Assembly (NCBI GenBank): GCA_964016885.1
Contig: OZ024740.1
Coordinates: 333,684,001 to 333,748,000 of the forward strand
Origin: Eledone cirrhosa
Taxonomy: Eukaryota
Direction: 5' to 3'
DNA length: 64,000 nt
Below are positions 10,014 through 64,000 of the stretch, piece by piece. The notes under the pieces were generated by a model. That model was not told the DNA's origin. It saw nothing but the letters and a program-made list of their open reading frames with translations, and did not search any database. The stretch's first letter is position 1, and every line of letters starts with the position of its first letter. Made by a program: the position numbers and the translations under genes.

Positions 10014-10065
<52 letters not shown>

Positions 10066-11057: not shown

Positions 11058-11095
11058 CCTTTTGAAAAGCAGAAGTACTGCGAAACCGGTAAAGG
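11058..11095 (+). ncRNA. Minimal type I hammerhead ribozyme (U3:A8) ending the second PLE
   Basis: cctt-TTGAAAA-gcag(aagta)ctgc-GAAA-ccgg-TA^aagg, palindromic stem III accggt, AATAAA at 11101. Confidence 0.8.
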
Positions 11096-11231
11096 AACCA
11101 AATAAATATATATATTTTTTAAAAAAATAAGACTTCAGTTGCATTTTCGATTTCATCTCTTTTTCTTTATACTTTCACTCGTCTCGTGTAGGACACCTTG
11201 GTTATTTTTCATTTTGTAAAAAAAACCGCAC

Positions 11232-11320
<89 letters not shown>

Positions 11321-11409: not shown

Positions 11410-11488
<79 letters not shown>

Positions 11489-11786
11489 TTCAAGAGTAAC
11501 CAATCTTAGAGAGGGAGATGGAGATAGGAGAGGAGAGATTGGTGAATTAGTTAGAAGCCAAAGCGTAAAGGCATCTGTTAAATGTACAATATGCAGTAGA
11601 AAGAAGCTAGGTGACTGGCTTCATGCAGAAGTTAGGTGCACAGAGCTGGAAATATTCATTAGTTAAGAAAAACAAGACCACAAATATCACAAGGAAGACA
11701 TTATTGAAAGATTGTCAACATATTTTACTTTGATGTAAGGAATGTAGAGAATAATAATAATAATAATAATAATAATATTAATAATA

Positions 11787-11900
11787 ATTGTTTCTACTTT
11801 AGGCACAAGGCCAACAATTACCCAGTGCATTACTGGTACTTCATTTTATCGACCCTGTAAGGATGAAAGGCAAAGTCAACCTCGGCGGGATTTGAACTCA
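11787..11900 (-). mobile_element. Truncated tRNA-derived SINE inserted in the (AAT)n of the left PLE repeat
   Basis: Matches the 3' part of the SINE at 33519-33706 and is absent from the right repeat copy. Confidence 0.8.
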
Positions 11901-12479
11901 ATATTAATAATAATAATGTCCGTTTACAATTGTTTCGCTACTCTATATGATCTTTCTGGATCAGATGACTATATATCATAAGTGATCTTGTTCAGTTGAA
12001 AATAATTAACCTATGTGAAAGACAGAGCGATTCATCGGAACTTCAAAGGAATATAAATTAAAATAATGAGAGAATGTTACATAATATAATGTTCCATATA
12101 TTGGTTTTCACTATGGTGTCTTGCTTGCATCAGTTTTCACCCATAATCAAGCAGTATTCATCTATCGAGGCTCGATTGTGTAAGATCTTCCTATGGGTAA
12201 CAAGATGGTTGCCAAAGGACATATTTACCTTACTAATTAGAGGGTGGTTTCAGGGAAGTAACTCCTCGAGAGATTAGAAATTGTGGGTATTTATACTTAT
12301 GTGCTAATTTTTAAATGTTTTAATTGAGAGACAATGTAGGGGAGGTAACTCATAATTATCTAAGTTGTTCATAGCTATTTAACTAATTAGCTACAAGTAA
12401 AAATGGGGCTAGATGACTAAGTTGGGTCAAATATTCTATTGGCGAAGGAATTAGCCCTTCGATGTTGACAGCTAATAGT

Positions 12480-14725
12480 TACCTCCGTTCTATAGTTAAT
12501 CGGTAGAGGTCCTGATAGAGTTATGTAATATGCTTCGGTAATACAGAGATCACAAGATTTTCTTCGTCCATTGACCGGTTGGGCCCTAGACACGATATCC
12601 CATTTTAGTGAGTGTTGAACGTTGCTTAATTTAAGGTTTTTAATGAGCCTAGCTAGCGATGTCGAACATCTGTTGCTAGGGTCTCGGAAGGAAAAAGAGC
12701 GCGCGTTATAGCGTACTTTAAAAGGGTTAGAGGTAGACCCGATATAAGAGCTGGTATTCGAAGCAGTTTTAACCGTGCATCTATTGACTATGTTGGGTGT
12801 CAGGCAGTGTCCATTTAATGAGTATGCATTGGGGTAACGGCAGTTGCTTCTGCGGTTAGTGAGAGTAGGGTAGTTTAACCTAAGCGGTAGGTCACTGCTA
12901 GAATGATTAGATGGGGGAGGTGTGCTACTAGAGTAATTATTGGTGTAGTGGCGTGGTGTATTTGATAGGGGTGGTGGTACCGCGGTCTGGGAGTTTTACT
13001 GTCTTAGTTTATGATGGTTACTGAATGCGATGTGGCTAGCTAGGTTAGGTATTGTGGAGAATGAGATTTTAATGTTATTTTTATTAAACAGTTTGTAATA
13101 TATATGTGTGTGGAGGGGGGGGTGTTTAGATAGGATAGAGAAGAAGCGTTTGGGGATATTAGTGGCTAGATTAGATGAGAATGGGGGGGTTAAGCCAGGT
13201 GATATTTCTAGGTCTATTCCTTCTAGGGGTTCTAGTGGAGTTGGTAGGGGCCTTCCTAGGGTTATTATTACCTGGGCATTTGTTATTTGTCATCCCATTT
13301 CTCATTCTTATTCTAGGGTTGATTTTTAGTTTGCTACTTGGAGTGGGGAGCAGGCCGCTGCCACCATTAAACTTCCATGTATAGGTGCTGTTACTGCTAA
13401 AATTCCTGCGAATCTGGCTATATGCTAAGGTATTTCTAGTTCTAGTGTTAAGTTTATTATGGTGAATTGCTGTGTTATGGCATTTAGGTGTGTAATAAAG
13501 TGATTGTTCATAACCAGATTCAGAAAGAGCCTTATTATAATATTGTGCATGATTTATAAATATCTCCTCATTTGCTGATAGCATTGAGATCCTATACGAG
13601 AGTTTTGATTACTGCTCTGATGACTGCCGGTGGGTGTTTAGAGTGTGGGCTAATATATGTGAGTATTTCTCCTGGTTTATGGTAAGGGTAATATAGGTTA
13701 TTGTTGAGATCCAGGGTGAAGTCTAGGAAGTTTACTACTTTATGTTTCGGCTCGATGGGGATAGAGTGACCGTTATTTTTAAAGAATCTATATAATTGTT
13801 TTTTTAGCAAATCGATGCCCCGATTAGTGCAATTGTTGACTGCAAATAGGGCGTCGTCCCTGTATATTCCGCCTTGCAAGGGTTGGATTTCGGCTCTGAT
13901 GTTATGTAATATGTAAATTCCAACTAAATCGGTGATTTGCGCGGAGGCACTTGAGCCCATCGTAATGTCAAAATTGTCCGTTCTATCTTTTCTAGTCCAG
14001 AGTGCTCCGTTGAATTCAATGATAGTCTGCCTAGCCATAAGTATGATGTTAATTTCCTTATTGGTTATGTCCGAGTTGGTGCTGGCTAGGGTTAATGCTT
14101 TGTTGAGCAGTTCCGGGGTTATTGACGCGTAGCTGTAGATGTCAAATTGGATGAACTTCATAGATTCTTTGGATCTTAGATCGGAGAACCATCTAATGAG
14201 TTGGCCGGTGTTGGACCAAAAATTGTAGGTGATATCATCCCGTAGCCCAGGGATTATCCTATCAAGGATTTTCTTACTGATGCGGCCCAGTTCAGATGTG
14301 GTTGGGCTTATAAGTCTAATAGATGGGTTCTCTATAAAGTTTGGCTTATGATCTTTGAGAGAGAACCTTGGGGTTGTTGGTACATAAGGGTGGGTAAATC
14401 TATCCAGATGCAAGTCCTTAACCAAAGCCTGGGCTTTTCGGTTAAGTACGTTTACACTGGAGGGTATAGTTTTTTTATAGTTTCTATTGAGTTCTTTAAG
14501 AAGGAAAGAGTTGTAAGTTTCAGGAGTCATGGTGTATAGATTTTTAGTTTTGTCAGACATAACATGTAAGAGGTGGCTATCTTTAAATTTTGTTATAGTT
14601 GTTGCTAATTTAGTGAGGAAATTATTATTGTGTCTATAATGCTTTTTAAATATAATGCTCCTGACGAAGTTGAATAGATCTTTCTCAAAAGGGTCCAGCA
14701 GGATTTTGTGTGGGGGGTTCTTGCA
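12480..14725 (-). pseudogene. PLE RT + GIY-YIG, degraded
   Basis: SIRLISP, FIQFDI, ITMGS, GIYRDD, VNFLD. The endonuclease reads NGHCLTPNIV...SYIGSTSNPFKVRYN...LKWDIV...CDLCITE. Confidence 0.88.
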
Positions 14726-14947
14726 TTTACTTCCCCTGAAACCACCCTCTAATTAGTAAGGTAAATATGTCCTTTAGCAGACATCTTGTTACACATAGGC
14801 AGATCTCACACAATGCAGCTTCCACAGATGAATACTGCTTGATTATGGCTGACAACTGATGCAACCAAAACACCATAGTGAAAACCAATATATGGAACAT
14901 TACCTTATGTAACATTCTCTCATTATTTTAATTTATATTCCTTTGAA

Positions 14948-15067
14948 GTTCGGATGAGCCGCTCTGTCTTTCACATATGTTAATTATTTTCAACTGAACC
15001 AGATCAATTATGATATATAGTCATCTGATCCAGAAATATCATATAGAGTAGCGAAACAACTGTAAAC
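14948..15067 (+). ncRNA. Hammerhead-like motif with ~95-nt extended stem II region (mirror at 11922-12041, minus)
   Basis: gtt-C(G/C)GATGA-gccgctct...agagtagc-GAAA-caa(c/t)tg-TA^aac. Stem III is the palindrome acaattgt in the left copy. Confidence 0.5.
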
Positions 15068-15204
15068 GGACATTATTATTATTAATATTATTATTATTAT
15101 TATTATTATTATTCTCTACATTGCTTACATCAAACTAAAATATGTTGACAATCTTTTAATAATGTTTTCCTTGTGAAATGTGTGGTCTTGTTTTGCTTAA
15201 CTAA

Positions 15205-15261
<57 letters not shown>

Positions 15262-15269
<8 letters not shown>

Positions 15270-16300
15270 AAGTAGAATTGGAGCTCTGAAATAGCAATAT
15301 ATAATTGGATGTATATATAATGTATTTTGCAATACACTTGAAGCTTAATTATAAGCATTTTGAAGACCGTATGCTATTGTTTTAGAGTAGTGACAAATTC
15401 ACTTACTTTAATCTCAGCAAACAGGGGAGATTTAGTTAAGCAAAACAAGACCACACATTTCACAAGGAAAACATTATTAAAAGATTGTCAACATATTTTA
15501 GTTTGATGTAAGGAATGTAGAGAATAATAATAATAATAATATTAATAATAATAATGTCCGTTTGCTGAGATTAAAGTAAGTGAATTTGTCACTACTCTAA
15601 TAGTCTTCAAAATGCTTTTAATTAAGCATAAAGTGTATTGCAAAATACATTATATATACATCCATATATATATTACTATTTCAGAGCTCCAATTCTAATT
15701 TTTAATTTCTGCCTGACCAACAATCGCTCTGTATAATCAGTTCCTGATTATTTACTAGAATTCTATAAGAATATAACATCAGTAATCTCAGTAGACAGGA
15801 GGAGTAGTTAGCCTTGATAAGCTTCAACAAAAGCGAAACAAGGACTTGTCTGCTTATCTCGCCTGTTTGCTGAGATTAAAGTAAGTGAATTTGTCACTAC
15901 TCTAAAACAATAGCATACGGTCTTCAAAATGCTTTTAATTAAGCATAAATTGTATTGCAAAATACATTATATATACATCCATATATATATTGCTATTTCA
16001 GAGCTCCAATTCTATTTTTTTTATTTCTGCCTTACCAACAATCGCTCTGTATTATCAGTTCCTGATTATTTACTAGAATTCTATAAGAATATAACATCAG
16101 TAATCTCAGTAGACAGGAGGAGTAGTTAGCCTTGATAAGCTTCAACAAAAGCGAAACAAGGCCTTGTCGGCTTATCTCCCCTGTTTGCTGAGATTAAAGT
16201 AAGTGAATTTGTCACTACTCTAAAACGATAGCATACGGTCTTCAAAATGCTTTTAATTAAGCATAAAGTGTATTGCAAAATACATTATATATACATCCAT
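15262..16300 (+). repeat. 318-bp tandem repeat (~2.3 units) with one hammerhead per unit and an inverted 5' segment
   Basis: Units run 15564-16300 with period 318. 15262-15430 is an inverted unit fragment. Flanked by (TA)n. Confidence 0.88.
16128..16172 (+). ncRNA. Type I hammerhead ribozyme (U3:A8); mutated sister copy at 15810-15854
   Basis: agcc-TTGATAA-gctt(caacaa)aagc-GAAA-caaggccttg-TC^ggct, palindromic stem III acaaggccttgt. Confidence 0.8.
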
Positions 16301-17070
16301 ATATATATATATATATATATTTATTTATATATATATTTACGCAAACACTTCATATCTGTTCGACACGCAGTGACTAACAACAGAATGTTTTAAGACTGCG
16401 TTTTTGACATATATGCGTAGCTTGTCAATAAATAAATTTGAAGGGGTGTCGCTGGTCGTGGTGATGATCGCTTCCAAACATGTTTTGTAATGTATCGTCT
16501 TATTGGTTAATCTCATCGTCTTATTGGCTAATCAACCAACGATAGTAAGTGTTGCTCAAAAGCATCCGCCATTTTGTTTGCACGTTTATTTATCGTTTCG
16601 CTTTCGAATCTTCCTACTTTATTTCGTCGGTTATCATCGAAATATTTTTCTCGTTTGGGTAAGTTATATTGTTAATTTATATATGATTTTTAAAATTTAT
16701 ATTAACTATTTTTTTTTTCAGTTCGTTATAACATGCTTATAATATTGGTTGTATCATATTTACTTGTATATTTGCCCATAGTATTGTTCTTTTTATGTTA
16801 GTTATTTTATTATTATTATGTTAGACTATTTGTATGTAATATTTAATTTTATAAATTCACTATAACAATTATTATGTAAAATATATTTATTTAATATTGA
16901 TTGTGTTTTGTAGTTGTTTATATTAAGAGTGTGCAAATATTTTTATACATCTTACAATAATATTTATAACATCATTTATAAAATAACAATTATATAATCT
17001 AATTACATTACAACGATAATGTATTATTAATATATATATCATGTTTAACTAGAGTTATTACAAGCGTTGC

Positions 17071-32595: not shown

Positions 32596-32615
32596 TATGT
32601 ATATATATATATATA

Positions 32616-34794: not shown

Positions 34795-37170
34795 CTATCC
34801 GTTAGGGTATAACGTGGGGCTGTAATACAGGAAAGTTTTGTGCAATTTATGTTTACAAGCCGAAATTGCCTCAGAATTTTTGTTTAAGATGTGGTCTGTA
34901 GCGTAGAGTATTTCCAGGGCCTCAGCGGCGCAGAGGTCACATGGTCTTTTATTTTCGTTATACGATCTAGCCCTAGCTAGGATCTCCCAGTGTAACTTAT
35001 ATTGGGTGTGGTTGTCTTTTAGACTCCAGATATAAGCTGAAAGTGACGTCATATTCCTTCTTAAATTTATCCTGGTATTTAAATAGCCGAGCTTCTCAAG
35101 GGGTAATTCCATATATGGTCAAAGTGATTGTCAAAAGGATTGGTCACAAGTTAGTAGTAATTCTGTGATGGCAAATTAGTGGGGGAAGAGGTAGCTAAAC
35201 CTGCCAGTAGGAAAAAAAGGGGAGGGGGTGGAGTAGACCCATTCATGCGTTGGTAGTGCCGGCTACAGCTGGGCGAGAGGTCAAAGAAGATACTAGGGAG
35301 GGGGAGGGGGAGGAAGTCGAAACGGTAGGTAGAACAATGAAGGGTAAATATATATAAATAAAAAATACTGAGTGATAAAAAGCGAATAAATGTAAAGAAA
35401 AAAATAAGCAATTTCTACGACCTAAGTCTCTCGCTATTGCTAGGCTAAATAAATAAATAAATAAGTAAATAAAAAAAAAAAATAAAAAAAAAAAATAAAT
35501 AAATAAATAAACTAGGTGGGACGGTATAAGAAGGGACCCTTTTAAGAGTTCTAAGTACGTATATCATATGGTGACGGGTCAACAAGGGGGGGGGGGGGGG
35601 CAAAATACTAAAGAAACTACCACGAAATAATTAATAAAGGTTTCTACCCAGGCACAAGGCCAGCAACCACCCAGTGCAGAAAAGTAAATTAGAACGAAAT
35701 AATAATTCAGAGTCCCGAAAAAAATATACTAATGCTGACTCTAAGGGTACCGCCACGCTACGAAAGTTCTTATACAAGCTACAAGAAAGTTCGTACGAAG
35801 TAAAAGTAAAATACGGAAAATTAATTCAGAATCCCTCCCCCCCCCCCCCCCCCCCCCCCCCGCCCAAAAGAAAAGAGAAGTAAGAAATACTGAATAAACG
35901 AGAAATTTAAAGCAAAGATGCCACTAAGAGATATAGAAGGTACGGAAATAAAGGGGCAGCGGTCGGATAAGGGGGCAAGTATCCGAGGTCTAACACAACT
36001 GCTATAAAAAGCGGAGTCCGCCAAATCTATCATAGAATAGGGGAGGGGGTGGGGGTACTGAGGCTACAAGGGGCCGAGGGGCTGCCTCGAGTGAGCGAGA
36101 AAAAGACGCCGACAAAGAAAAAGAACTGGGGTAGAAGGACTAGGGAGGGATGGGGAGAAGAAGGAAATATAGAGGAAGCGATAAAAGAATATAAAAGAAG
36201 ATCTTACGTCTCCCTTGGCAAGCAGGAATTACCCATTACAAAATCGGCAAGTGGGGTGTTATAGCCCTAGTCTACCCCCACCCCGGGTCATTGTGGAGTT
36301 TGAGGGCGAGGTAAGTCCTACGCAATCTGTGTTTACATGCAGTAACCAGTTCATCTTTTTTGTTTAGGAGTTGGTCCATCGAAAACAGCATTTGTAAAGT
36401 TTCCTCCGAGCATAAATTGCACGGACAGCGTCCTCCCGTGTAAGAGTTGGCTCTGGACAGTAATCTCCAAGTGAGATCATAGGTGATGTTGTTGTCCTTG
36501 AGGTCCCATTATTGGCCCGAAAGTGTAGTGGCGTGACACCGGGCCGGGTTTCGGAAGGTATGTCTGCGTTAGTATAGCCGGGTCTTGAAGTCACATGCGG
36601 TTAATCCTATATAAGCTTTGTTGGAGGTGTCCGTCCTCACGTTGCACTGGTAGATCACATTACGGTCTCTGCATCTGTTGTCGAGGGGGAAAATGGATCT
36701 ATCAGGACAGTTGCACCTCCTGGTCGGCTCTCCACTGCTATTTAGGTTATTTCTTCCATCGGGGTTGAGTTTTTTGTTGTTGGAGAAGACGATGTTTTGT
36801 GCGAAGTTTGGTGTAGTGCTGTAAGAGAGTTTGTTGGTATTTTTGTTAATTATGTTGTGGTAGCGGTGTTGTAGTGGGAAGTGTTTTTCAAAGAGCCTAA
36901 AGAATAACTTCCCGATGGGAGTTGTCACCTTTGCGTTGTGGGGAGGATTGAACCATGTTACAATGCGTGAGCGGCGGTGACAATCACTTTGACCATATAT
37001 GGAATTACCCCTTGAGAAGCTCGGCTATTTAAATACCAGGATAAATTTTCATTTAGTCCATAATTAGCCGTCGAAACGGCTTGAGCTCAGCCGTCGGGTC
37101 TTACTGGTTCCTATTACCCACTCTACTACCCTAAGTATTGAGTACGTTGGCGCGTTATGGTCCACCTGGT
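34795..37170 (-). mobile_element. Composite PLE remnant: two GIY-YIG fragments plus an inverted terminal repeat
   Basis: CNCPDRSIFPLDNRC..NVIYQCNV..AYIGLTACDFKTRLY (36569-36928) and TSLSAYIWSLK..WEIL..CDLCAAE (34795-35065). A ~80-bp inverted repeat pairs 35065-35133 with 36978-37047. Confidence 0.8.
37008..37098 (+). ncRNA. Type I hammerhead ribozyme (U3:A8) with enlarged stem II and long stem III
   Basis: ccc-TTGAGAA-g..cggcta[loop]tagccg-tc-GAAA-cggct(tgagctc)agccg-TC^ggg, predicted cleavage after 37095. Confidence 0.6.
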
Positions 37171-37190
37171 TCCTTACCACATTTCCTTCG

Positions 37191-37255
<65 letters not shown>

Positions 37256-37784: not shown

Positions 37785-37976
37785 GAAAAAAGTATGACCT
37801 CGACGGCAGAGCTCAAGCCGTTTCGACGGCTATTTCTGGCCTCCAGAAATAGCCGTCGAAACGGCTTGAGCTCTGCCTTCGGAGTCATACTTTTTCCTAT
37901 TACCCACTCTACTACCCTAAGTATTGAGTACACTGGTGCGTTATAGTCCATCTGGTTCCTTACCACATTTCCTTCG
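37782..37976 (+). mobile_element. Hairpin-plus-tail mini-element derived from the HHR-bearing PLE terminus
   Basis: ~58-bp arms around a 3-nt loop (37840-37842), plus a ~76-bp tail matching 37100-37170. Confidence 0.8.
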
Positions 37977-37977
37977 T

Positions 37978-46735: not shown

Positions 46736-46928
46736 ATAGGAGAATATTTAACCCCGACGGCAGAGCCCAAGCCGTTTCGACGGCTATTTCTGGTCCAGAA
46801 ATAGCCGTCGAAACATCTTGAGCTCTGCCGTTGGGATTAAACATTCTCCTATTATCCACTCTACCACCCTGAATATTGAGTACTATGGTGCGTTATGGTC
46901 CATCTGGTTCCTTACCACACCTACTTCG
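46736..46928 (+). mobile_element. Second hairpin-plus-tail mini-element
   Basis: Arms 46736-46793 / 46795-46852 with a 1-nt loop. Tail matches those at 37100-37170 and 37901-37976. Confidence 0.8.
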
Positions 46929-46929
46929 T

Positions 46930-47681: not shown

Positions 47682-48295
47682 CGAGAGATGGAGAGACAGT
47701 AATAGCAAGAGAAGAAGTGATAGTAATGAAGAGGTAATGAACCTAAACTCGAAGAAAATTTGCAAGTTATAATAAACATAGGATTATTAGCTAGGAATGA
47801 ACCCGAACTGAAATTGAAGTCCAAATACAAAAACTGTAATTACTCATAATCCGACCGAAAAAACACGAAGCATACTAATTTTACATAAATATACTATAAA
47901 TCCATTCCCGTATTAATCAGTCATGTTCCACTGAAGATATCTCCAATCAGAGAGAATTCAACTCGTGCAGACTAACTATTCGTTGTAAGCACTATGTCTA
48001 TATATATTGTCCTTCACAAGCATACATATGAATGAAAACAATGTTTATTACACGTTATAATTTTTTCTCTACGTTGAATAACATAGTTCAGCATTTGATA
48101 TAATTCTTAACTTTTTTGAAAACTATACCTTATACAAACACGTACCTTATACAAATATAGGATACCTATTTATAAAATGTAAAAAGTGACGTACCCAATA
48201 AATCTCCTGAAAAAATTAGAGAATCTCCAGGTAATGGAAAAAGAGCCTTCTATGTTAAGTACAGAGCTACAGTACATTATTATCAATAATAATGG

Positions 48296-49489
48296 TACTA
48301 TTGGTAATATCGGTAGAGGGTCGGACGCCATGCTTTCCAGCATAGTTACGTCCCTTTACGATCTGAGTTCAAATCCCGCCGAGGTTGACTTTGCCTTTCA
48401 TCCTTACGGGGCCGATAAAATAAAGTACCACTAATGCACTGGTTAATTGCTGGCCTTGTGCCTAAAGTAGAAACAATTATTATCAATAATAATAGTAATA
48501 ATAATAATTGTTTCTACGTTAGGCACAAGGCCACCAATTAACCAGTGTATTACTGGTACTTTATTTTATCGACCCCATAAGGATGAAAGGCAAAGTTAAC
48601 CTCGGCGGGATTTGAACTCAGAATGGCAAGGGCCGTAACTCTATGCGTCAAAGCATGGCGTCCGACCCTCTATCAAGACTGCCAATGATTTCTAATACAG
48701 GCACAAGACCAGCAATTAGTGGGGTAGGGAAAGACGATTAAATTGATTGCAGTTCATTACTGGTACTTTATTTTATCGATGAAAGGCAAAGCTGACCGCG
48801 GCTGGATTTGAACACAAGGGATAAAGTGTTGTAATCTACGCCGCGAAGCTTGCTCTCCGACGCTCTACTGATATTGTCGATCCATTAATAATAATAATAA
48901 TTGTTTCTACTTTGGGCAAAAGGCCATCAATTACATCAGTGCATTAGTGGTGCTTTATTTTATCGAACCCGTACGGATGAATGGCAAAGTTAACCTCGGC
49001 GGCATTTGAACGAAAAAGTCCATAATTCTAAACTGCAAACCATGGTGTCTGACGCTTTACCGATACTGCCAATTTCATATAGGAACAAGGCCAACAATTT
49101 TGGAGGAGGGGAAAGTCGATTAAATCGACCCCTGTGCGTGATTAGTACTCTTTTCTAACGACCCGTAAAGAAGAAAGGCAAAGAAAACCTCAGCGGGATT
49201 TGAATTCAGAATGAAAAGGTCCATAACTCTAAGCTGCAAATCATGGTGTCTGACGCTCTACCGATGCTGCCAATCCACAACCCTTAATAATAATAATAAT
49301 AATAATTGTTTCTACTTTTGGCACAAGGCCAGCAATTAACCAGTGAATTACTGGTACTTTATTTTATCGACCCCGTAAGGATGAAAGACAAAGTTCACCG
49401 CGGCAGGATTTGAACTCAGAATGACAAGGGCCATAACTCTATGCATCAAAGCATGACGTCCGACCCTCTACCGATACTGCCAATGCACC
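48296..49489. mobile_element. Cluster of six tRNA-derived SINE copies (one +, five -)
   Basis: + 48296-48478. Minus copies at ~48506-48686, 48688-48885, 48899-49074, 49075-49283 and 49304-49489, with (AAT)n linkers. Confidence 0.85.
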
Positions 49490-49570
49490 AATAATAATAA
49501 TGTCAGGCTGACACTCGGCATGATTTGGGAAAAATGTGAATTCAAAAGAAGATTTATTAATAAAAAAAAT

Positions 49571-52547: not shown

Positions 52548-53418
52548 TGTGTGTGTGCGTGTGTGTATGTGTGCATGTCACACCTCTATTTTAGAGAGAA
52601 AAAATGCCGACCCGCCTGGCCAAGCGTGCGAAAGAAAAGAATTACGCACAGGTCAAACGGGAAGAAGGAGGAGGAGGAGAGGTAGTAACAGAGAATGAGT
52701 GAGTGAAGAGTGAGGAAGAGGCTAACAGAGAGAGTGACTGCTAGAGAGGGTAAAGATACAGAGAAAGGGGAAGCAGTAAGAACGAAATAGACGGGTAACA
52801 GCAGGGGAAAACATATGTGTAAATATGAGAATAAACGTGCTGCGGGATTGTTAATGGGTTACATATGAATAAAGTTAGTCCTTCATCAGTGATCTTCCAA
52901 CCATCATTGGTATTTCATCGCTTTAAAGACCATATACCTCCGGTTGGTGCGAGCAACGGCTAAAAAAAGCCGTTGGGACACGTAAATAAAGGGGACATGA
53001 GTGTAAACAAACAAAAATGGTGAAGCAACGAAAAGTGAGGAAGAACGAGTCAAGTGCCAAATTTCTATGAATTTAAATTCGGTGAAATCGTGAACGAGAG
53101 AGAATAAAGACCATCAAACCTGGTTTAAATGTGAGCAAGGAAGGAATTTCGCACAGGTCTAACGGGAGGAAGAAGGGGTCTAGTCTGAATTCGGTAAACA
53201 TAAGTTCTGTGAAATGGTAGACGAGAGAGAGAAAAAATGCCGACCGGCCTGGCCAAGCGTGCGGTGGATGAAGTGTTGTATGTGTCTAATGCATCTTTCA
53301 CTGCATTTTGGTGCGTTGACAGCTATCCTTGCGTTGGGTTGTTAAGTTTTTTTCAACTCTCTCTCTCTCTCTGCCTATGTATATACACACACACACATAT
53401 GTATATATATATATATAT

Positions 53419-54870
53419 ATAATTAAGTTAAAGTGTACATCTACATATGTATACGGAAGTACTAGTATGCATATAAATACACACATGCATACATATGTAC
53501 ATGTACTGAGTTTTTCACTAGACACTTTACAGTGAGTGTCCAGCTAGTCTGTATGTAACCACACAGACGGACCGGGTTTTAGAGTCATACGAGTTTTCAA
53601 GGAAACACATTTCCTCTATTCTCCAGAGAGCCAGACAGGAATATTGGACTAGTTTCGATGTTATTACATCTCATCAGCAATATATACCCATCTTCCGGCT
53701 TCTCTAGAGAATTGTAAAAGCACATATCGTTATATGCTTTTTCTATGAAAATTAGTAGTGGGTAGACTAATTTGCATAGAACGTGAGTCATTGTACGCAC
53801 CGGTTCAGCGGAAACGATAAAAACAAATAACGAAACGAAATTAAATTTCGTTTCGCTTCTAACTCACTTTTGTATGACTGACGCTTAAATAATTAAGTTA
53901 AAGTGTACATCTACATATGTATACGGAAGTACTAGTATGCATATAAATACACACATGCATACATATGTACATGTACTGAGTTTTTCACTAGACACTTTAC
54001 AGTGAGTGTCCAGCTAGTCTGTATGTAACCACACAGACGGACCGGGTTTTAGAGTCATACGAGTTTTCAAGGAAACACATTTCCTCTATTCTCCAGAGAG
54101 CCAGACAGGAATATTGGACTAGTTTCGATGTTATTACATCTCATCAGCAATATATACCCATCTTCCGGCTTCTCTAGAGAATTGTAAAAGCACATATCGT
54201 TATATGCTTTTTCTATGAAAATTAGTAGTGGGTAGACTAATTTGCATAGAACGTGAGTCATTGTACGCACCGGTCCAGCGGAAACGATAAAAACAAATAA
54301 CGAAACGAAATTAAATTTCGTTTCGCTTCTAACTCACTTTTGTATGACTGACGCTTAAATAATTAAGTTAAAGTGTACATCTACATATGTATACGGAAGT
54401 ACTAGTATGCATATAAATACACACATGCATACATATGTACATATACTGAGTTTTTCACTAGACACTTTACAGTGAGTGTCCAGCTAGTCTGTATGTAACC
54501 ACACAGACGGACCGGGTTTTAGAGTCATACGAGTTTTCAAGGAAACACATTTCCTCTATTCTCCAGAGAGCCAGACAGGAATATTGGACTAGTTTCGATG
54601 TTATTACATCTCATCAGCAATATATACCCATCTTCCGGCTTCTCTAGAGAATTGTAAAAGCACATATCGTTATATGCTTTTTCTATGAAAATTAGTAGTG
54701 GGTAGACTAATTTGCATAGAACGTGAGTCATTGTACGCACCGGTTCAGCGGAAACGATAAAAACAAATAACGAAACGAAATTAAATTTCGTTTCGCTTCT
54801 AACTCACTTTTGTATGACTGACGCTTAAATAATTAAGTTAAAGTGTACATCTACATATGTATACGGAAGT
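53419..54870 (-). repeat. Inverted arm of the 470-bp hammerhead satellite (~3.1 units)
   Basis: Reverse complement of the downstream array. HHRs at 53641-53683, 54111-54153 and 54581-54623. Confidence 0.97.
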
Positions 54871-57800
54871 GTGTATTTATATGCATACTAGTACTTCCGT
54901 ATACATATGTAGATGTACACTTTAACTTAATTATTTAAGCGTCAGTCATACAAAAGTGAGTTAGAAGCGAAACGAAATTTAATTTCGTTTCGTTATTTGT
55001 TTTTATCGTTTCCGCTGAACCGGTGCGTACAATGACTCACGTTCTATGCAAATTAGTCTACCCACTACTAATTTTCATAGAAAAAGCATATAACGATATG
55101 TGCTTTTACAATTCTCTAGAGAAGCCGGAAGATGGGTATATATTGCTGATGAGATGTAATAACATCGAAACTAGTCCAATATTCCTGTCTGGCTCTCTGG
55201 AGAATAGAGGAAATGTGTTTCCTTGAAAACTCGTATGACTCTAAAACCCGGTCCGTCTGTGTGGTTACATACAGACTAGCTGGACACTCACTGTAAAGTG
55301 TCTAGTGAAAAACTCAGTACATGTACATATGTATGTATGTGTGTATTTATATGCATACTAGTACTTCCGTATACATATGTAGATGTACACTTTAACTTAA
55401 TTATTTAAGCGTCAGTCATACAAAAGTGAGTTAGAAGCGAAACGAAATTTAATTTCGTTTCGTTATTTGTTTTTATCGTTTCCGCTGAACCGGTGCGTAC
55501 AATGACTCACGTTCTATGCAAATTAGTCTACCCACTACTAATTTTCATAGAAAAAGCATATAACGATATGTGCTTTTACAATTCTCTAGAGAAGCCGGAA
55601 GATGGGTATATATTGCTGATGAGATGTAATAACATCGAAACTAGTCCAATATTCCTGTCTGGCTCTCTGGAGAATAGAGGAAATGTGTTTCCTTGAAAAC
55701 TCGTATGACTCTAAAACCCGGTCCGTCTGTGTGGTTACATACAGACTAGCTGGACACTCACTGTAAAGTGTCTAGTGAAAAACTCAGTACATGTACATAT
55801 GTATGCATGTGTGTATTTATATGCATACTAGTACTTCCGTATACATATGTAGATGTACACTTTAACTTAATTATTTAAGCGTCAGTCATACAAAAGTGAG
55901 TTAGAAGCGAAACGAAATTTAATTTCGTTTCGTTATTTGTTTTTATCGTTTCCGCTGAACCGGTGCGTACAATGACTCACGTTCTATGCAAATTAGTCTA
56001 CCCACTACTAATTTTCATAGAAAAAGCATATAACGATATGTGCTTTTACAATTCTCTAGAGAAGCCGGAAGATGGGTATATATTGCTGATGAGATGTAAT
56101 AACATCGAAACTAGTCCAATATTCCTGTCTGGCTCTCTGGAGAATAGAGGAAATGTGTTTCCTTGAAAACTCGTATGACTCTAAAACCCGGTCCGTCTGT
56201 GTGGTTACATACAGACTAGCTGGACACTCACTGTAAAGTGTCTAGTGAAAAACTCAGTACATGTACATATGTATGCATGTGTGTATTTATATGCATACTA
56301 GTACTTCCGTATACATATGTAGATGTACACTTTAACTTAATTATTTAAGCGTCAGTCATACAAAAGTGAGTTAGAAGCGAAACGAAATTTAATTTCGTTT
56401 CGTTATTTGTTTTTATCGTTTCCGCTGAACCGGTGCGTACAATGACTCACGTTCTATGCAAATTAGTCTACCCACTACTAATTTTCATAGAAAAAGCATA
56501 TAACGATATGTGCTTTTACAATTCTCTAGAGAAGCCGGAAGATGGGTATATATTGCTGATGAGATGTAATAACATCGAAACTAGTCCAATATTCCTGTCT
56601 GGCTCTCTGGAGAATAGAGGAAATGTGTTTCCTTGAAAACTCGTATGACTCTAAAACCCGGTCCGTCTGTGTGGTTACATACAGACTAGCTGGACACTCA
56701 CTGTAAAGTGTCTAGTGAAAAACTCAGTACATGTACATATGTATGCATGTGTGTATTTATATGCATACTAGTACTTCCGTATACATATGTAGATGTACAC
56801 TTTAACTTAATTATTTAAGCGTCAGTCATACAAAAGTGAGTTAGAAGCGAAACGAAATTTAATTTCGTTTCGTTATTTGTTTTTATCGTTTCCGCTGAAC
56901 CGGTGCGTACAATGACTCACGTTCTATGCAAATTAGTCTACCCACTACTAATTTTCATAGAAAAAGCATATAACGATATGTGCTTTTACAATTCTCTAGA
57001 GAAGCCGGAAGATGGGTATATATTGCTGATGAGATGTAATAACATCGAAACTAGTCCAATATTCCTGTCTGGCTCTCTGGAGAATAGAGGAAATGTGTTT
57101 CCTTGAAAACTCGTATGACTCTAAAACCCGGTCCGTCTGTGTGGTTACATACAGACTAGCTGGACACTCACTGTAAAGTGTCTAGTGAAAAACTCAGTAC
57201 ATGTACATATGTATGCATGTGTGTATTTATATGCATACTAGTACTTCCGTATACATATGTAGATGTACACTTTAACTTAATTATTTAAGCGTCAGTCATA
57301 CAAAAGTGAGTTAGAAGCGAAACGAAATTTAATTTCGTTTCGTTATTTGTTTTTATCGTTTCCGCTGAACCGGTGCGTACAATGACTCACGTTCTATGCA
57401 AATTAGTCTACCCACTACTAATTTTCATAGAAAAAGCATATAACGATATGTGCTTTTACAATTCTCTAGAGAAGCCGGAAGATGGGTATATATTGCTGAT
57501 GAGATGTAATAACATCGAAACTAGTCCAATATTCCTGTCTGGCTCTCTGGAGAATAGAGGAAATGTGTTTCCTTGAAAACTCGTATGACTCTAAAACCCG
57601 GTCCGTCTGTGTGGTTACATACAGACTAGCTGGACACTCACTGTAAAGTGTCTAGTGAAAAACTCAGTACATGTACATATGTATGCATGTGTGTATTTAT
57701 ATGCATACTAGTACTTCCGTATACATATGTAGATGTACACTTTAACTTAATTATTTAAGCGTCAGTCATACAAAAGTGAGTTAGAAGCGAAACGAAATTT

Positions 57801-60800
57801 AATTTCGTTTCGTTATTTGTTTTTATCGTTTCCGCTGAACCGGTGCGTACAATGACTCACGTTCTATGCAAATTAGTCTACCCACTACTAATTTTCATAG
57901 AAAAAGCATATAACGATATGTGCTTTTACAATTCTCTAGAGAAGCCGGAAGATGGGTATATATTGCTGATGAGATGTAATAACATCGAAACTAGTCCAAT
58001 ATTCCTGTCTGGCTCTCTGGAGAATAGAGGAAATGTGTTTCCTTGAAAACTCGTATGACTCTAAAACCCGGTCCGTCTGTGTGGTTACATACAGACTAGC
58101 TGGACACTCACTGTAAAGTGTCTAGTGAAAAACTCAGTACATGTACATATGTATGCATGTGTGTATTTATATGCATACTAGTACTTCCGTATACATATGT
58201 AGATGTAAACTTTAACTTAATTATTTAAGCGTCAGTCATACAAAAGTGAGTTAGAAGCGAAACGAAATTTAATTTCGTTTCGTTATTTGTTTTTATCGTT
58301 TCCGCTGAACCGGTGCGTACAATGACTCACGTTCTATGCAAATTAGTCTACCCACTACTAATTTTCATAGAAAAAGCATATAACGATATGTGCTTTTACA
58401 ATTCTCTAGAGAAGCCGGAAGATGGGTATATATTGCTGATGAGATGTAATAACATCGAAACTAGTCCAATATTCCTGTCTGGCTCTCTGGAGAATAGAGG
58501 AAATGTGTTTCCTTGAAAACTCGTATGACTCTAAAACCCGGTCCGTCTGTGTGGTTACATACAGACTAGCTGGACACTCACTGTAAAGTGTCTAGTGAAA
58601 AACTCAGTACATGTACATATGTATGCATGTGTGTATTTATATGCATACTAGTACTTCCGTATACATATGTAGATGTACACTTTAACTTAATTATTTAAGC
58701 GTCAGTCATACAAAAGTGAGTTAGAAGCGAAACGAAATTTAATTTCGTTTCGTTATTTGTTTTTATCGTTTCCGCTGAACCGGTGCGTACAATGACTCAC
58801 GTTCTATGCAAATTAGTCTACCCACTACTAATTTTCATAGAAAAAGCATATAACGATATGTGCTTTTACAATTCTCTAGAGAAGCCGGAAGATGGGTATA
58901 TATTGCTGATGAGATGTAATAACATCGAAACTAGTCCAATATTCCTGTCTGGCTCTCTGGAGAATAGAGGAAATGTGTTTCCTTGAAAACTCGTATGACT
59001 CTAAAACCCGGTCCGTCTGTGTGGTTACATACAGACTAGCTGGACACTCACTGTAAAGTGTCTAGTGAAAAACTCAGTACATGTACATATGTATGCATGT
59101 GTGTATTTATATGCATACTAGTACTTCCGTATACATATGTAGATGTACACTTTAACTTAATTATTTAAGCGTCAGTCATACAAAAGTGAGTTAGAAGCGA
59201 AACGAAATTTAATTTCGTTTCGTTATTTGTTTTTATCGTTTCCGCTGAACCGGTGCGTACAATGACTCACGTTCTATGCAAATTAGTCTACCCACTACTA
59301 ATTTTCATAGAAAAAGCATATAACGATATGTGCTTTTACAATTCTCTAGAGAAGCCGGAAGATGGGTATATATTGCTGATGAGATGTAATAACATCGAAA
59401 CTAGTCCAATATTCCTGTCTGGCTCTCTGGAGAATAGAGGAAATGTGTTTCCTTGAAAACTCGTATGACTCTAAAACCCGGTCCGTCTGTGTGGTTACAT
59501 ACAGACTAGCTGGACACTCACTGTAAAGTGTCTAGTGAAAAACTCAGTACATGTACATATGTATGCATGTGTGTATTTATATGCATACTAGTACTTCCGT
59601 ATACATATGTAGATGTACACTTTAACTTAATTATTTAAGCGTCAGTCATACAAAAGTGAGTTAGAAGCGAAACGAAATTTAATTTCGTTTCGTTATTTGT
59701 TTTTATCGTTTCCGCTGAACCGGTGCGTACAATGACTCACGTTCTATGCAAATTAGTCTACCCACTACTAATTTTCATAGAAAAAGCATATAACGATATG
59801 TGCTTTTACAATTCTCTAGAGAAGCCGGAAGATGGGTATATATTGCTGATGAGATGTAATAACATCGAAACTAGTCCAATATTCCTGTCTGGCTCTCTGG
59901 AGAATAGAGGAAATGTGTTTCCTTGAAAACTCGTATGACTCTAAAACCCGGTCCGTCTGTGTGGTTACATACAGACTAGCTGGACACTCACTGTAAAGTG
60001 TCTAGTGAAAAACTCAGTACATGTACATATGTATGCATGTGTGTATTTATATGCATACTAGTACTTCCGTATACATATGTAGATGTACACTTTAACTTAA
60101 TTATTTAAGCGTCAGTCATACAAAAGTGAGTTAGAAGCGAAACGAAATTTAATTTCCTTTCGTTATTTGTTTTTATCGTTTCCGCTGAACCGGTGCGTAC
60201 AATGACTCACGTTCTATGCAAATTAGTCTACCCACTACTAATTTTCATAGAAAAAGTATATAACGATATGTGCTTTTACAATTCTCTAGAGAAGCCGGAA
60301 GATGGGTATATATTGCTGATGAGATGTAATAACATCGAAACTAGTCCAATATTCCTGTCTGGCTCTCTGGAGAATAGAGGAAATGTGTTTCCTTGAAAAC
60401 TCGTATGACTCTAAAACCCGGTCCGTCTGTGTGGTTACATACAGACTAGCTGGACACTCACTGTAAAGTGTCTAGTGAAAAACTCAGTACATGTACATAT
60501 GTATGCATGTGTGTATTTATATGCATACTAGTACTTCCGTATACATATGTAGATGTACACTTTAACTTAATTATTTAAGCGTCAGTCATACAAAAGTGAG
60601 TTAGAAGCGAAACGAAATTTAATTTCGTTTCGTTATTTGTTTTTATCGTTTCCGCTGAACCGGTGCGTACAATGACTCACGTTCTATGCAAATTAGTCTA
60701 CCCACTACTAATTTTCATAGAAAAAGCATATAACGATATGTGCTTTTACAATTCTCTAGAGAAGCCGGAAGATGGGTATATATTGCTGATGAGATGTAAT

Positions 60801-63800
60801 AACATCGAAACTAGTCCAATATTCCTGTCTGGCTCTCTGGAGAATAGAGGAAATGTGTTTCCTTGAAAACTCGTATGACTCTAAAACCCGGTCCGTCTGT
60901 GTGGTTACATACAGACTAGCTGGACACTCACTGTAAAGTGTCTAGTGAAAAACTCAGTACATGTACATATGTATGCATGTGTGTATTTATATGCATACTA
61001 GTACTTCCGTATACATATGTAGATGTACACTTTAACTTAATTATTTAAGCGTCAGTCATACAAAAGTGAGTTAGAAGCGAAACGAAATTTAATTTCGTTT
61101 CGTTATTTGTTTTTATCGTTTCCGCTGAACCGGTGCGTACAATGACTCACGTTCTATGCAAATTAGTCTACCCACTACTAATTTTCATAGAAAAAGCATA
61201 TAACGATATGTGCTTTTACAATTCTCTAGAGAAGCCGGAAGATGGGTATATATTGCTGATGAGATGTAATAACATCGAAACTAGTCCAATATTCCTGTCT
61301 GGCTCTCTGGAGAATAGAGGAAATGTGTTTCCTTGAAAACTCGTATGACTCTAAAACCCGGTCCGTCTGTGTGGTTACATACAGACTAGCTGGACACTCA
61401 CTGTAAAGTGTCTAGTGAAAAACTCAGTACATGTACATATGTATGCATGTGTGTATTTATATGCATACTAGTACTTCCGTATACATATGTAGATGTACAC
61501 TTTAACTTAATTATTTAAGCGTCAGTCATACAAAAGTGAGTTAGAAGCGAAACGAAATTTAATTTCGTTTCGTTATTTGTTTTTATCGTTTCCGCTGAAC
61601 CGGTGCGTACAATGACTCACGTTCTATGCAAATTAGTCTACCCACTACTAATTTTCATAGAAAAAGCATATAACGATATGTGCTTTTACAATTCTCTAGA
61701 GAAGCCGGAAGATGGGTATATATTGCTGATGAGATGTAATAACATCGAAACTAGTCCAATATTCCTGTCTGGCTCTCTGGAGAATAGAGGAAATGTGTTT
61801 CCTTGAAAACTCGTATGACTCTAAAACCCGGTCCGTCTGTGTGGTTACATACAGACTAGCTGGACACTCACTGTAAAGTGTCTAGTGAAAAACTCAGTAC
61901 ATGTACATATGTATGCATGTGTGTATTTATATGCATACTAGTACTTCCGTATACATATGTAGATGTACACTTTAACTTAATTATTTAAGCGTCAGTCATA
62001 CAAAAGTGAGTTAGAAGCGAAACGAAATTTAATTTCGTTTCGTTATTTGTTTTTATCGTTTCCGCTGAACCGGTGCGTACAATGACTCACGTTCTATGCA
62101 AATTAGTCTACCCACTACTAATTTTCATAGAAAAAGCATATAACGATATGTGCTTTTACAATTCTCTAGAGAAGCCGGAAGATGGGTATATATTGCTGAT
62201 GAGATGTAATAACATCGAAACTAGTCCAATATTCCTGTCTGGCTCTCTGGAGAATAGAGGAAATGTGTTTCCTTGAAAACTCGTATGACTCTAAAACCCG
62301 GTCCGTCTGTGTGGTTACATACAGACTAGCTGGACACTCACTGTAAAGTGTCTAGTGAAAAACTCAGTACATGTACATATGTATGCATGTGTGTATTTAT
62401 ATGCATACTAATACTTCCGTATACATATGTAGATGTACACTTTAACTTAATTATTTAAGCGTCAGTCATACAAAAGTGAGTTAGAAGCGAAACGAAATTT
62501 AATTTCGTTTCGTTATTTGTTTTTATCGTTTCCGCTGAACCGGTGCGTACAATGACTCACGTTCTATGCAAATTAGTCTACCCACTACTAATTTTCATAG
62601 AAAAAGCATATAACGATATGTGCTTTTACAATTCTCTAGAGAAGCCGGAAGATGGGTATATATTGCTGATGAGATGTAATAACATCGAAACTAGTCCAAT
62701 ATTCCTGTCTGGCTCTCTGGAGAATAGAGGAAATGTGTTTCCTTGAAAACTCGTATGACTCTAAAACCCGGTCCGTCTGTGTGGTTACATACAGACTAGC
62801 TGGACACTCACTGTAAAGTGTCTAGTGAAAAACTCAGTACATGTACATATGTATGCATGTGTGTATTTATATGCATACTAGTACTTCCGTATACATATGT
62901 AGATGTACACTTTAACTTAATTATTTAAGCGTCAGTCATACAAAAGTGAGTTAGAAGCGAAACGAAATTTAATTTCGTTTCGTTATTTGTTTTTATCGTT
63001 TCCGCTGAACCGGTGCGTACAATGACTCACGTTCTATGCAAATTAGTCTACCCACTACTAATTTTCATAGAAAAAGCATATAACGATATGTGCTTTTACA
63101 ATTCTCTAGAGAAGCCGGAAGATGGGTATATATTGCTGATGAGATGTAATAACATCGAAACTAGTCCAATATTCCTGTCTGGCTCTCTGGAGAATAGAGG
63201 AAATGTGTTTCCTTGAAAACTCGTATGACTCTAAAACCCGGTCCGTCTGTGTGGTTACATACAGACTAGCTGGACACTCACTGTAAAGTGTCTAGTGAAA
63301 AACTCAGTACATGTACATATGTATGCATGTGTGTATTTATATGCATACTAGTACTTCCGTATACATATGTAGATGTACACTTTAACTTAATTATTTAAGC
63401 GTCAGTCATACAAAAGTGAGTTAGAAGCGAAACGAAATTTAATTTCGTTTCGTTATTTGTTTTTATCGTTTCCGCTGAACCGGTGCGTACAATGACTCAC
63501 GTTCTATGCAAATTAGTCTACCCACTACTAATTTTCATAGAAAAAGCATATAACGATATGTGCTTTTACAATTCTCTAGAGAAGCCGGAAGATGGGTATA
63601 TATTGCTGATGAGATGTAATAACATCGAAACTAGTCCAATATTCCTGTCTGGCTCTCTGGAGAATAGAGGAAATGTGTTTCCTTGAAAACTCGTATGACT
63701 CTAAAACCCGGTCCGTCTGTGTGGTTACATACAGACTAGCTGGACACTCACTGTAAAGTGTCTAGTGAAAAACTCAGTACATGTACATATGTATGCATGT

Positions 63801-64000
63801 GTGTATTTATATGCATACTAGTACTTCCGTATACATATGTAGATGTACACTTTAACTTAATTATTTAAGCGTCAGTCATACAAAAGTGAGTTAGAAGCGA
63901 AACGAAATTTAATTTCGTTTCGTTATTTGTTTTTATCGTTTCCGCTGAACCGGTGCGTACAATGACTCACGTTCTATGCAAATTAGTCTACCCACTACTA
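54871..64000 (+). repeat. 470-bp tandem array (>=19.4 units, runs off the window), hammerhead-containing, retrozyme-like
   Basis: Exact 470-bp period (the ORF track repeats every 470). Only isolated substitutions seen. Confidence 0.98.
55140..55182 (+). ncRNA. Canonical minimal type I hammerhead ribozyme, repeated at 55140+470k (k=0..18)
   Basis: atattg-CTGATGA-gatgt(aata)acatc-GAAA-ctag-TC^caatat: 6-bp stem I, 5-bp stem II, palindromic stem III actagt, GUC cleavage after 55176. Confidence 0.93.

What the first reader, a model, noticed from the sequence alone, without database searches (positions are those of the whole stretch)
53419..56345. The ribozyme array begins in (TA)n with a 1.45-kb fold-back, like the PLE insertions in this window
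Seen: 53419-54870 is the reverse complement of 54893-~56344, with a 22-nt spacer (54871-54892) and a 'gt' microhomology at the switch. The arm starts directly after a TA tract. The protein-coding PLEs at 299-5353 and 11485-15205 share this (TA)n plus inverted-duplicate layout. Inference: the array was integrated by PLE RT/GIY-YIG machinery in trans rather than built only by unequal crossing-over. A near-perfect palindrome this long should also be unstable.
Basis: partly seen in the sequence, partly recalled or inferred. Interest (0 to 1): 0.72.

Follow-up and report, generated by a model that had tools for sequence, protein, structure and literature searches.

The report
Ribozyme repeat array, Penelope-type insertion scar
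A long run of non-coding, self-cutting-RNA repeats begins with the inverted, TA-anchored junction that Penelope retrotransposons leave, which suggests that these transposons paste such arrays into the genome rather than the arrays only growing in place.

Summary
Observation confirmed. 53419-54870 mirrors 54893-56344 (3 mismatches in 1452), with a 22-nt spacer, a GT microhomology and an abutting (TA)10. The 470-bp unit has no ORF and carries a canonical type I hammerhead: a non-LTR retrozyme. Both arms point their RNA 3' ends outward, as in the PLE at 299-5353.

Three additions: (1) The window holds other ORF-less inserts with both ends visible and the full PLE layout (TA, inverted arm, main arm, tail): a 318-bp hammerhead tandem (15265-16308, 31-34-nt tail) and two copies of a 195-bp element (79-nt tail). 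(2) The switch lies 1 nt from the axis of the unit's strongest RNA hairpin. (3) All 7 variants in 22.5 units are private substitutions.

Best reading (0.67): PLE RT/endonuclease primed both strands of (TA)n on a circular or multimeric retrozyme RNA in trans. PLE mobilisation of retrozymes was already proposed (2020; 2026 preprint); I found no junction-level evidence in the papers read. Untested: far end, raw reads, partner PLE. A DNA-level fold-back at the same hairpin is not excluded. TA adjacency alone is not PLE-specific here.

The parts
53402..53421 (.). (TA)10 target tract, end of a compound CT/CA/TA microsatellite; last 3 nt shared with the arm
53419..54870 (-). Inverted arm, 3.09 units of the 470-bp repeat; RNA-sense 3' end at 53419 (unit position 228 counted from the predicted ribozyme cut), 5' end at unit position 187
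54869..54870 (.). 2-nt GT microhomology at the switch
54871..54892 (+). 22-nt spacer (unit positions 165-186), lying in the loop of the unit's 72-nt hairpin (141-212); switch axis 175.5 against hairpin axis 176.5
54869..64000 (+). Main array, 19.4 head-to-tail 470-bp units, 5 private substitutions, no indels, open at the window end
55127..55199 (+). Type I hammerhead ribozyme of the first full unit (repeats every 470 bp; predicted cut after 55176, 55646 ...); helix I 6 bp, helix II 4-5 bp, helix III 2 bp with a 2-nt palindromic loop
299..5353 (+). Comparator: coding PLE (RT + GIY-YIG, frameshifted); inverted arm 299-2571, main copy 2572-5353 with 40-nt tail, (TA)n on both sides
11652..15207 (-). 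Comparator: second PLE (Hydra-clade-like motifs, broken ORF); inverted arm 14727-15207 ends in (AT)n; 11486-11651 unresolved
15265..16308 (+). Comparator: ORF-less 318-bp hammerhead (U3-A8 variant) tandem, 2.4 copies, with inverted arm 15265-15431, 132-nt filler copied from 15064-15204, (TA)n at both ends, 31-34-nt tail
37785..37977 (+). Comparator: 195-bp non-coding insert, (TA)n / 57-bp inverted arm / 3-nt loop / main arm with 79-nt tail / (TA)n
46739..46929 (+). Comparator: second copy of the 195-bp family, same two 3' end points

Best explanation
The array is a non-LTR retrozyme (470-nt unit, canonical type I hammerhead, no ORF) inserted by Penelope-like element (PLE) protein in trans. Steps: (1) array transcripts self-cleave to 470-nt monomers that circularise, or persist as multimers [inferred from family knowledge, PMC7229834]. 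(2) PLE GIY-YIG endonuclease cuts both strands of a (TA)n tract and the RT extends both ends on the RNA from internal start sites [shown in vitro for the anole PLE, PMC11167929; inferred here]. The visible start is unit position 228. (3) RT copies more than one unit: at least 3.09 on the left [shown in the sequence], and up to 19 or more on the right [inferred; later lengthening possible]. (4) Both cDNAs end inside the loop of the unit's strongest RNA hairpin, at 187 and 163 [shown]; probably the RNA stem re-forms and ejects the cDNA end [inferred]. (5) The two ends join through 2 nt of microhomology, giving a head-to-head inversion with both RNA 3' ends outward [shown]. A one-cDNA variant, in which the long cDNA folds back on itself and copies 1.45 kb, gives the same sequence and is counted in this explanation.
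For: Polarity: hammerheads read outward on both arms, as in PLE 299-5353. Unequal crossing-over alone cannot make an inversion (established knowledge). Target: arm end overlaps (TA)10; background 2.6-3.2%. All 6 of 6 other hammerhead-like elements picked up by motif scans that did not use TA (197, 5161 with its mirror 449, 11062, 16132, 23167, 32510) have a TA tract of 5 or more units within 175 nt downstream of the predicted cut, background 15%; the array's distance is 226 nt. Layout in ORF-less inserts with both ends visible: 318-bp tandem with 31-34-nt tail; two 195-bp copies sharing both 3' end points, 79 nt apart. Inverted 5'-truncated copy, 30-40-bp tail and (TA)n bias are described PLE traits (PMC8557442); two RT start sites define the tail and both strands are cut and extended (PMC11167929). 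Tail-less ends share 3-10 nt of alternating TA with the target in the array, both PLEs, the 318-bp element and both 195-bp copies. Variants: 7 of 7 are single-unit substitutions, none shared; left and right rates are compatible with one age (P=0.25); gradual-duplication simulations give 5 of 5 singletons with P 0.04-0.07. PLEs with TA-targeting-type endonucleases (Neptune-like, Hydra-like motifs) sit in the window.
Against: The far end, which would show the second TA junction and the tail, is off-window. No sequence link between the unit and any PLE end in 1-53418 (only microsatellite-like matches), so no partner is identified. TA adjacency is not PLE-specific: a SINE-like copy (33705) and other repeats (5399/18851, 33796) also abut TA tracts. 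The hairpin-centred switch is equally what DNA-level fold-back predicts. The hairpin ranks first among 470 72-nt RNA windows (-30.4, next region -28.4) but is not in the top 8 80-nt windows under DNA parameters. The singleton test rests on 5 variants, a crude model and a partial array; fast expansion or assembly polishing would also give it. PMC11167929 reports priming without homology to the target, unlike the short TA overlaps seen here. The comparators are other families, and the 195-bp element has no complete hammerhead.
Confidence: 0.67

Rival explanations
1. DNA-level fold-back in an array that was already there: a break or stalled fork at the unit's quasi-palindrome lets the nascent strand turn back, copy 1.45 kb and rejoin the flank at a TA tract through 3 nt of microhomology. 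No RT is needed for the inversion.
For: Switch axis 1 nt from the axis of the best-scoring native quasi-palindrome (175.5 against 176.5; about 0.5% by chance, about 2% if any of the top four hairpins counts). Short spacer bounded by short inverted sequence is the described fold-back signature (PMC3907307 abstract; PMC7999016 passages).
Against: Must separately explain the outward polarity and the landing in (TA)n, both shared with the PLE-type inserts nearby. The hairpin is outstanding as RNA, ordinary as DNA. The right-arm variant at 55336 is not mirrored in the left arm, so any copying preceded it.
Confidence: 0.12
2. Insertion in cis: the 470-bp unit is the pseudo-LTR of a protein-coding PLE that lies beyond 64000, and the array is an extreme upstream pLTR tandem with the usual inverted copy.
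For: Inverted copies lie next to the upstream pLTR in described PLEs (PMC8557442). 24 of 57 Xenopus retrozyme families matched annotated TEs, nearly all PLE termini (10.64898/2026.07.22.740005). The far end is not visible.
Against: No coding remnant in the unit (longest stop-free frame 88 codons). The hammerhead has canonical helix sizes, unlike the minimal or variant types of the PLE ends in this window. At least 19 pLTR copies would be far more than the partial tandems described.
Confidence: 0.1
3. Sequencing or assembly artefact: a fold-back or amplification chimera, or a mis-join between two arrays of opposite orientation.
For: Fold-back reads are about 0.55-0.6% of ONT genomic reads (PMC12870357). 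Arms are 99.8% identical inside a tandem array. No raw reads were available.
Against: A folded read would return to the mirrored flank after 3.09 units; the sequence continues for at least 16 more units. The left arm has 2 private variants and lacks the right arm's variant. The centre is pure unit sequence with no foreign bases. All 7 variants are substitutions and none is an indel, despite three 5-nt homopolymers per unit. Diverged inversions of the same layout (89-98%) exist nearby and cannot be read chimeras. Fold-backs are nearly absent from PacBio HiFi data; the platform used here is unknown.
Confidence: 0.06
4. Mobilised by a different retro-machinery (a LINE, by twin priming) or by a rolling-circle DNA element.
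For: A LINE-like RT fragment is in the window (19697-20665). LINEs were named as possible partners (PMC7229834). L1 makes inverted inserts (10.1101/2024.12.14.628481 passages).
Against: No poly(A) or simple-repeat tail at the visible 3' end. Twin priming gives non-overlapping segments of one RNA (recalled), whereas the comparators have two arms starting near the same 3' end. The SINE-like inverted pair at 48344-48640 has 3' ends inward and no TA tract.
Confidence: 0.05

Closest known systems
Non-LTR (metazoan) retrozymes (PMC7229834; bioRxiv 10.64898/2026.07.22.740005)
   Same: Head-to-tail ORF-less units, each with a canonical type I hammerhead; GC 36%; strongly self-paired monomer. PLEs were already proposed as the mobilising partner, and RT on a circle as the source of tandem cDNA.
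   Different: Unit is 470 nt, just above the 150-450 bp of the 2020 paper and inside the 51-972 bp of the preprint. In the parts I read, neither paper describes an inverted arm, (TA)n target or tail; the preprint attributes arrays to local amplification and cites unequal crossover.
[quoted passage not shown]
   Same: Works like one: inverted 5'-truncated copy, RNA 3' ends outward, (TA)n target, internal RT start, hammerhead upstream of the 3' end.
   Different: No RT or GIY-YIG ORF in the visible 10.6 kb; 22.5 or more copies of a short unit instead of a partial tandem; canonical instead of minimal hammerhead; tail not testable.
Non-autonomous Chlamys PLEs such as MRC1 (PMC8557442)
   Same: Non-coding, PLE-dependent, multicopy head-to-tail insertions.
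   Different: Algal; Chlamys elements mostly lack hammerheads; they resemble their autonomous partner at the 3' end, which could not be shown here.
Fold-back inverted duplications (PMC3907307)
   Same: Short spacer and microhomology at an intrastrand hairpin.
   Different: Those arise from chromosome breaks; here the inverted arm ends in a TA tract like neighbouring retro-insertions.

Membership tests
Non-LTR retrozyme | Short head-to-tail tandem units | tested here: met
   470 bp, 19.4 + 3.09 copies; within 51-972 bp, 20 bp above 150-450 bp
Non-LTR retrozyme | Complete type I hammerhead in at least two consecutive units | tested here: met
   22 identical cores; no variant falls in the ribozyme; Rfam HH9 E=3.2e-6, below gathering; helix sizes fit the canonical description
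Non-LTR retrozyme | No protein coding; GC below 50% | tested here: met
   Longest stop-free frame 88 codons; GC 36.4%. PBS/PPT not searched
Non-LTR retrozyme | Highly self-paired monomer | tested here: met
   Linear monomer -165.4 kcal/mol, z -13.9, 0 of 100 shuffles; circular sense z -10.9, antisense z -6.0
Non-LTR retrozyme | Self-cleavage and expression as circular RNA | not testable with these tools
   Needs RNA data; only 1 of 9 predicted Xenopus elements cleaved in vitro
Non-LTR retrozyme | Target-site duplication longer than 4 bp when present | not testable with these tools
   Far end off-window; a TA target would hide it
Autonomous EN+ PLE | ORF with RT and GIY-YIG endonuclease | tested here: not met
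   No ORF of 150 aa or more in 53419-64000. Not filed as an autonomous PLE; sequence beyond 64000 unseen
PLE-type insertion (works like) | Inverted 5'-truncated copy at the 5' end, 3' ends outward | tested here: met
PLE-type insertion (works like) | (TA)n target | tested here: met
   Left end only; not PLE-specific in this window
PLE-type insertion (works like) | Tail: two 3' ends offset by tens of bases | not testable with these tools
   Far end off-window; met in comparators: 40, 31-34 and 79 nt
Non-autonomous derivative of a specific PLE | Similarity to the pLTR or 3' end of an autonomous family | tested here: inconclusive
   None within 1-53418; rest of the genome unavailable

The most novel reading that the evidence does not exclude
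A PLE reverse transcriptase went round a 470-nt ribozyme circle at least 19 times from one nick and 3 times from the other, writing a satellite array of 10.6 kb or more in one insertion, with a hairpin of the RNA fixing where the two cDNAs stop and join. Hammerhead satellites would then be born long by retrotransposition, and the junction would be the direct genomic footprint of rolling-circle reverse transcription in an animal.
Probability: 0.35. Interest if true: 0.8.

Novelty: new variant of a known kind. Interest (0 to 1): 0.6.

Why it matters
Which enzyme spreads animal retrozymes, and whether their arrays are made by reverse transcription of circles or grow in place, is open. The 2020 paper names PLEs as candidates; the 2026 preprint adds co-occurrence and pLTR similarity but explains arrays by local amplification. 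An insertion junction is more direct evidence, and it gives a cheap genome-wide test: fixed 3' end points, a tail, a TA target and an inverted arm at retrozyme array ends. If long arrays appear in one step, PLE RT is very processive on circular RNA, a retro-route to satellite DNA exists, and near-perfect kilobase palindromes are a by-product. The hairpin-centred switch also bears on how PLE inversions form, which PMC8557442 lists as unresolved.

Tried and rejected
Rfam at gathering threshold over the window: 0 matches; the mir-297 and other miRNA hits at E-value threshold are the TA/TG-rich unit hairpin, far below gathering. Unit dimer against 1-53418: only microsatellite-like matches. Pfam found nothing for either ORF of the second PLE at E 0.01; its assignment rests on 58 homologues, many with PF26215, and on DKT, YRDD, CxxC and CxH motifs; the CxCX5C linker was not matched. 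No intact hammerhead was detected in that PLE. Idea that the arm ends at the ribozyme cut: rejected for the array (3' end +228, 5' ends +163 and +187), although both 5' ends of the 318-bp element lie 6-15 nt after its cut. Idea that the hairpin is the strongest in cDNA: not supported. Idea that TA adjacency is diagnostic: weakened. My strict hammerhead scan (5 hits, 0 in 30 shuffles) missed the motifs at 23167 and 32510 found by the looser scan. Paper searches returned nothing relevant. No structure or complex prediction was run.
Full report
1. Observation. The palindrome is real in the sequence. Positions pair at i+j=109763; 53419-54870 is the reverse complement of 54893-56344 with 3 mismatches in 1452, a 22-nt spacer and a GT shared at 54869-54870. 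The arm end overlaps a (TA)10 tract (53402-53421) by 3 nt; tracts of 5, 8 or 10 or more units cover 3.2, 2.6 and 2.4% of 1-53418. The right arm does not stop at 56344: it is the start of a 470-bp array of 19.4 units that runs off the window. The structure is a 3.09-unit inverted arm joined to a long array.

2. The unit. It has no ORF (longest stop-free frame 88 codons), is 36% GC and folds far better than shuffles (z -13.9, 0 of 100). Each unit has a type I hammerhead with an intact core, helix I of 6 bp, helix II of 4-5 bp and a 2-bp helix III with a palindromic loop; Rfam HH9 aligns over its full length at E=3.2e-6, below gathering. These sizes match the canonical, dimer-acting type described in PMC4209133. 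The unit meets every testable criterion of a non-LTR retrozyme; cleavage and circular RNA are untested. The only named protein hits from the window are from octopods (Argonauta hians, 1 of 10 hits; Octopus bimaculoides, a weak partial hit, 1 of 58), so an octopod host is likely but not established.

3. Polarity. The hammerheads read on - in the left arm and on + in the right arm, so the RNA 3' ends face outward and the 5' ends meet at the switch. PLE 299-5353 (RVT_1 E=2.3e-8, GIY-YIG E=4.3e-5) is built the same way: inverted arm 299-2571, 98.3% identical, main copy with a 40-nt tail, (TA)n on both sides. The second PLE also has an outward inverted arm ending in (AT)n, but its main end is 166 nt from the TA tract. 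Inverted 5'-truncated copy, 30-40-bp tail and (TA)n bias are described PLE traits (PMC8557442). In vitro the anole PLE protein cuts and extends both strands, and two internal RT start sites define the tail (PMC11167929).

4. Non-coding inserts with both ends visible. 15265-16308 is a second ORF-less hammerhead tandem (318 bp, 2.4 copies, U3-A8 core at 16132): (AT)n, inverted arm, 132-nt filler, forward copies, (TA)n, with the two 3' ends 31-34 nt apart. The filler matches the neighbouring PLE arm (1 mismatch and one repeat-length gap in 141) better than that PLE's main copy (8 mismatches in 124), which suggests two cDNA ends bridged by copying nearby DNA. 37785-37977 and 46739-46929 are two copies of a 195-bp element with (TA)n, 57-bp inverted arm, 1-3-nt loop, main arm and (TA)n; both copies share both 3' end points, 79 nt apart. 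So non-coding RNAs get the full PLE layout in this genome, with fixed start sites. All 6 of 6 other hammerhead-like elements found by TA-blind scans have a TA tract within 175 nt downstream of the cut, against 15% of random positions. Against this: other repeats also touch TA tracts, so TA alone proves little, and these comparators are different families.

5. The switch. Counted from the predicted cut, the left arm's 3' end is at 228 and the two 5' ends are at 163 and 187. Both lie in the loop of a 72-nt hairpin (141-212), the best ungapped quasi-palindrome of the unit and the most stable of 470 72-nt RNA windows (-30.4 kcal/mol; next region -28.4; median -15.2). The switch axis is 175.5 and the hairpin axis 176.5; chance is about 0.5%, or 2% for any of the top four hairpins. 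Under DNA parameters the hairpin is not in the top 8 windows. My inference is that the RNA stem re-forms behind the RT and ejects the cDNA end, which then joins by 2 nt of microhomology. The same geometry is expected from a DNA-level fold-back (PMC3907307 abstract), which is the main rival.

6. One step or growth in place? Over 19 full units, a 198-nt partial unit and the left arm there are 7 variants, all single-unit substitutions, 5 of them transitions, no indels. Rates are 2 in 1452 and 5 in 9132, compatible with one age (P=0.25), overall 0.066%, against about 1% between the arms of PLE 299-5353. Six simulations of gradual tandem duplication give 5 of 5 singletons with P 0.04-0.07. This favours synthesis in one step or a fast burst, but it is weak. 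Unequal crossing-over cannot make the inversion; it may have lengthened the right arm.

7. Artefact. A folded read would return to the mirrored flank after 3.09 units; it does not. The arms carry private variants, the centre has no foreign bases, and diverged inversions of the same layout lie nearby. Fold-backs are about 0.55-0.6% of ONT genomic reads and nearly absent in HiFi (PMC12870357). Without reads I leave 0.06.

8. Instability. Untested. Inverted Alus stall eukaryotic forks with a 12-bp spacer but not with 52 bp (PMC7999016); 22 nt is between. The array is young, so its survival says little. Older fold-backs with 1-3-nt loops persist here, but with 57-bp arms.

9. What is known. PLEs as the mobilising partner and RT on circles as the source of tandems were proposed in PMC7229834 and, for PLEs themselves, PMC4209133, which also saw pairs of minimal hammerheads on opposite strands 100-700 bp apart. 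The 2026 preprint supports the link by co-occurrence and pLTR similarity and explains arrays by local amplification; 'junction' and 'tail' do not occur in it and 'inverted' occurs only in a reference. Non-autonomous tandem PLEs are known in Chlamydomonas. Searches found no report of a retrozyme array with a PLE-type inverted TA junction; the library lacks most subscription journals and Repbase. What I saw: preprint 10.64898/2026.07.22.740005, parts 1-3 of 5 and a term search, supplements closed and possibly relevant; PMC8557442, passages and section 11; PMC7229834, passages and Discussion, supplements not read; PMC11167929 and PMC4209133, parts 1-2 of 4; PMC7999016, PMC12870357 and 10.1101/2024.12.14.628481, passages; PMC3907307, abstract. 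The 'SINE' label for 11790-11900 and its copies, and the L1 twin-priming geometry, are recalled and come from no call.

10. Verdict. A retrozyme by every testable feature, not an autonomous PLE, with an insertion end that works like a PLE's. PLE machinery in trans 0.67; DNA fold-back 0.12; cis pLTR tandem 0.10; artefact 0.06; other machinery 0.05. New variant of a known kind. Interest 0.6: the idea is in print, the junction evidence appears not to be, and it makes the question directly testable from the far end and from other loci.

Noticed in passing
window 15265-16308: Second ORF-less hammerhead tandem (318 bp) with TA at both ends, inverted arm, 31-34-nt tail and a 132-nt filler copied from the neighbouring PLE arm; both 5' ends lie 6-15 nt after the predicted ribozyme cut. 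A more complete example than the finding itself.
   Followed up: yes
window 37785-37977, 46739-46929, 37057-37191: 195-bp non-coding family: fold-back with 1-3-nt loop, TA at both ends, the same two 3' end points in two copies (79 nt apart); third copy has the main arm only. No complete hammerhead seen; possibly a PLE-dependent short element.
   Followed up: partly
window 6735-7230: 133-bp inverted arms (95%) with 230-nt spacer, each with a hammerhead-like motif reading outward (about 7147 on +; seen by eye, not by the scans); right end meets a CT/TA tract.
   Followed up: partly
window 8407-11237: 5'-truncated, frameshifted PLE with a CX4CxxC linker (Neptune-like) between two long (AT)n tracts; 3' UTR has a 323-bp direct repeat (10199-10846) and a U3-A8 hammerhead-like motif at 11062.
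   Followed up: partly
window 11652-15207: PLE with DKT, CxxC and CxH motifs as described for the Hydra clade; a SINE-like insert sits in its 3' repeat (11790-11900). Hydra PLEs are reported in molluscs only as a few families.
   Followed up: partly
window 197-285, 23167-23286, 32510-32600: Three more hammerhead-like motifs followed 45-92 nt after the predicted cut by TA tracts; probably PLE 3' remnants.
   Followed up: partly
array unit positions 141-212: 4 of the 7 array variants (144, 160, 185, 212) fall in the 72-nt hairpin, 15% of the unit (binomial about 0.013 by hand, post hoc).
   Followed up: no
window 48274-49503: Cluster of SINE-like copies joined through (AAT)n tails, including a tail-to-tail inverted pair with 1-nt spacer (48344-48640), opposite in polarity to the PLE-type inversions.
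   Followed up: partly
window 17087-17528 and 25339-25561: Older inverted repeats (86% and 76%) not abutting TA tracts of 5 or more units; possibly MITE-like.
   Followed up: no
window 19697-20665: RT fragment (RVT_1 E=7.8e-10) that looks LINE-like and not PLE-like.
   Followed up: no
window 52590-52640 and 53220-53265: A motif of about 40 nt occurs twice in the flank just left of the array.
   Followed up: no
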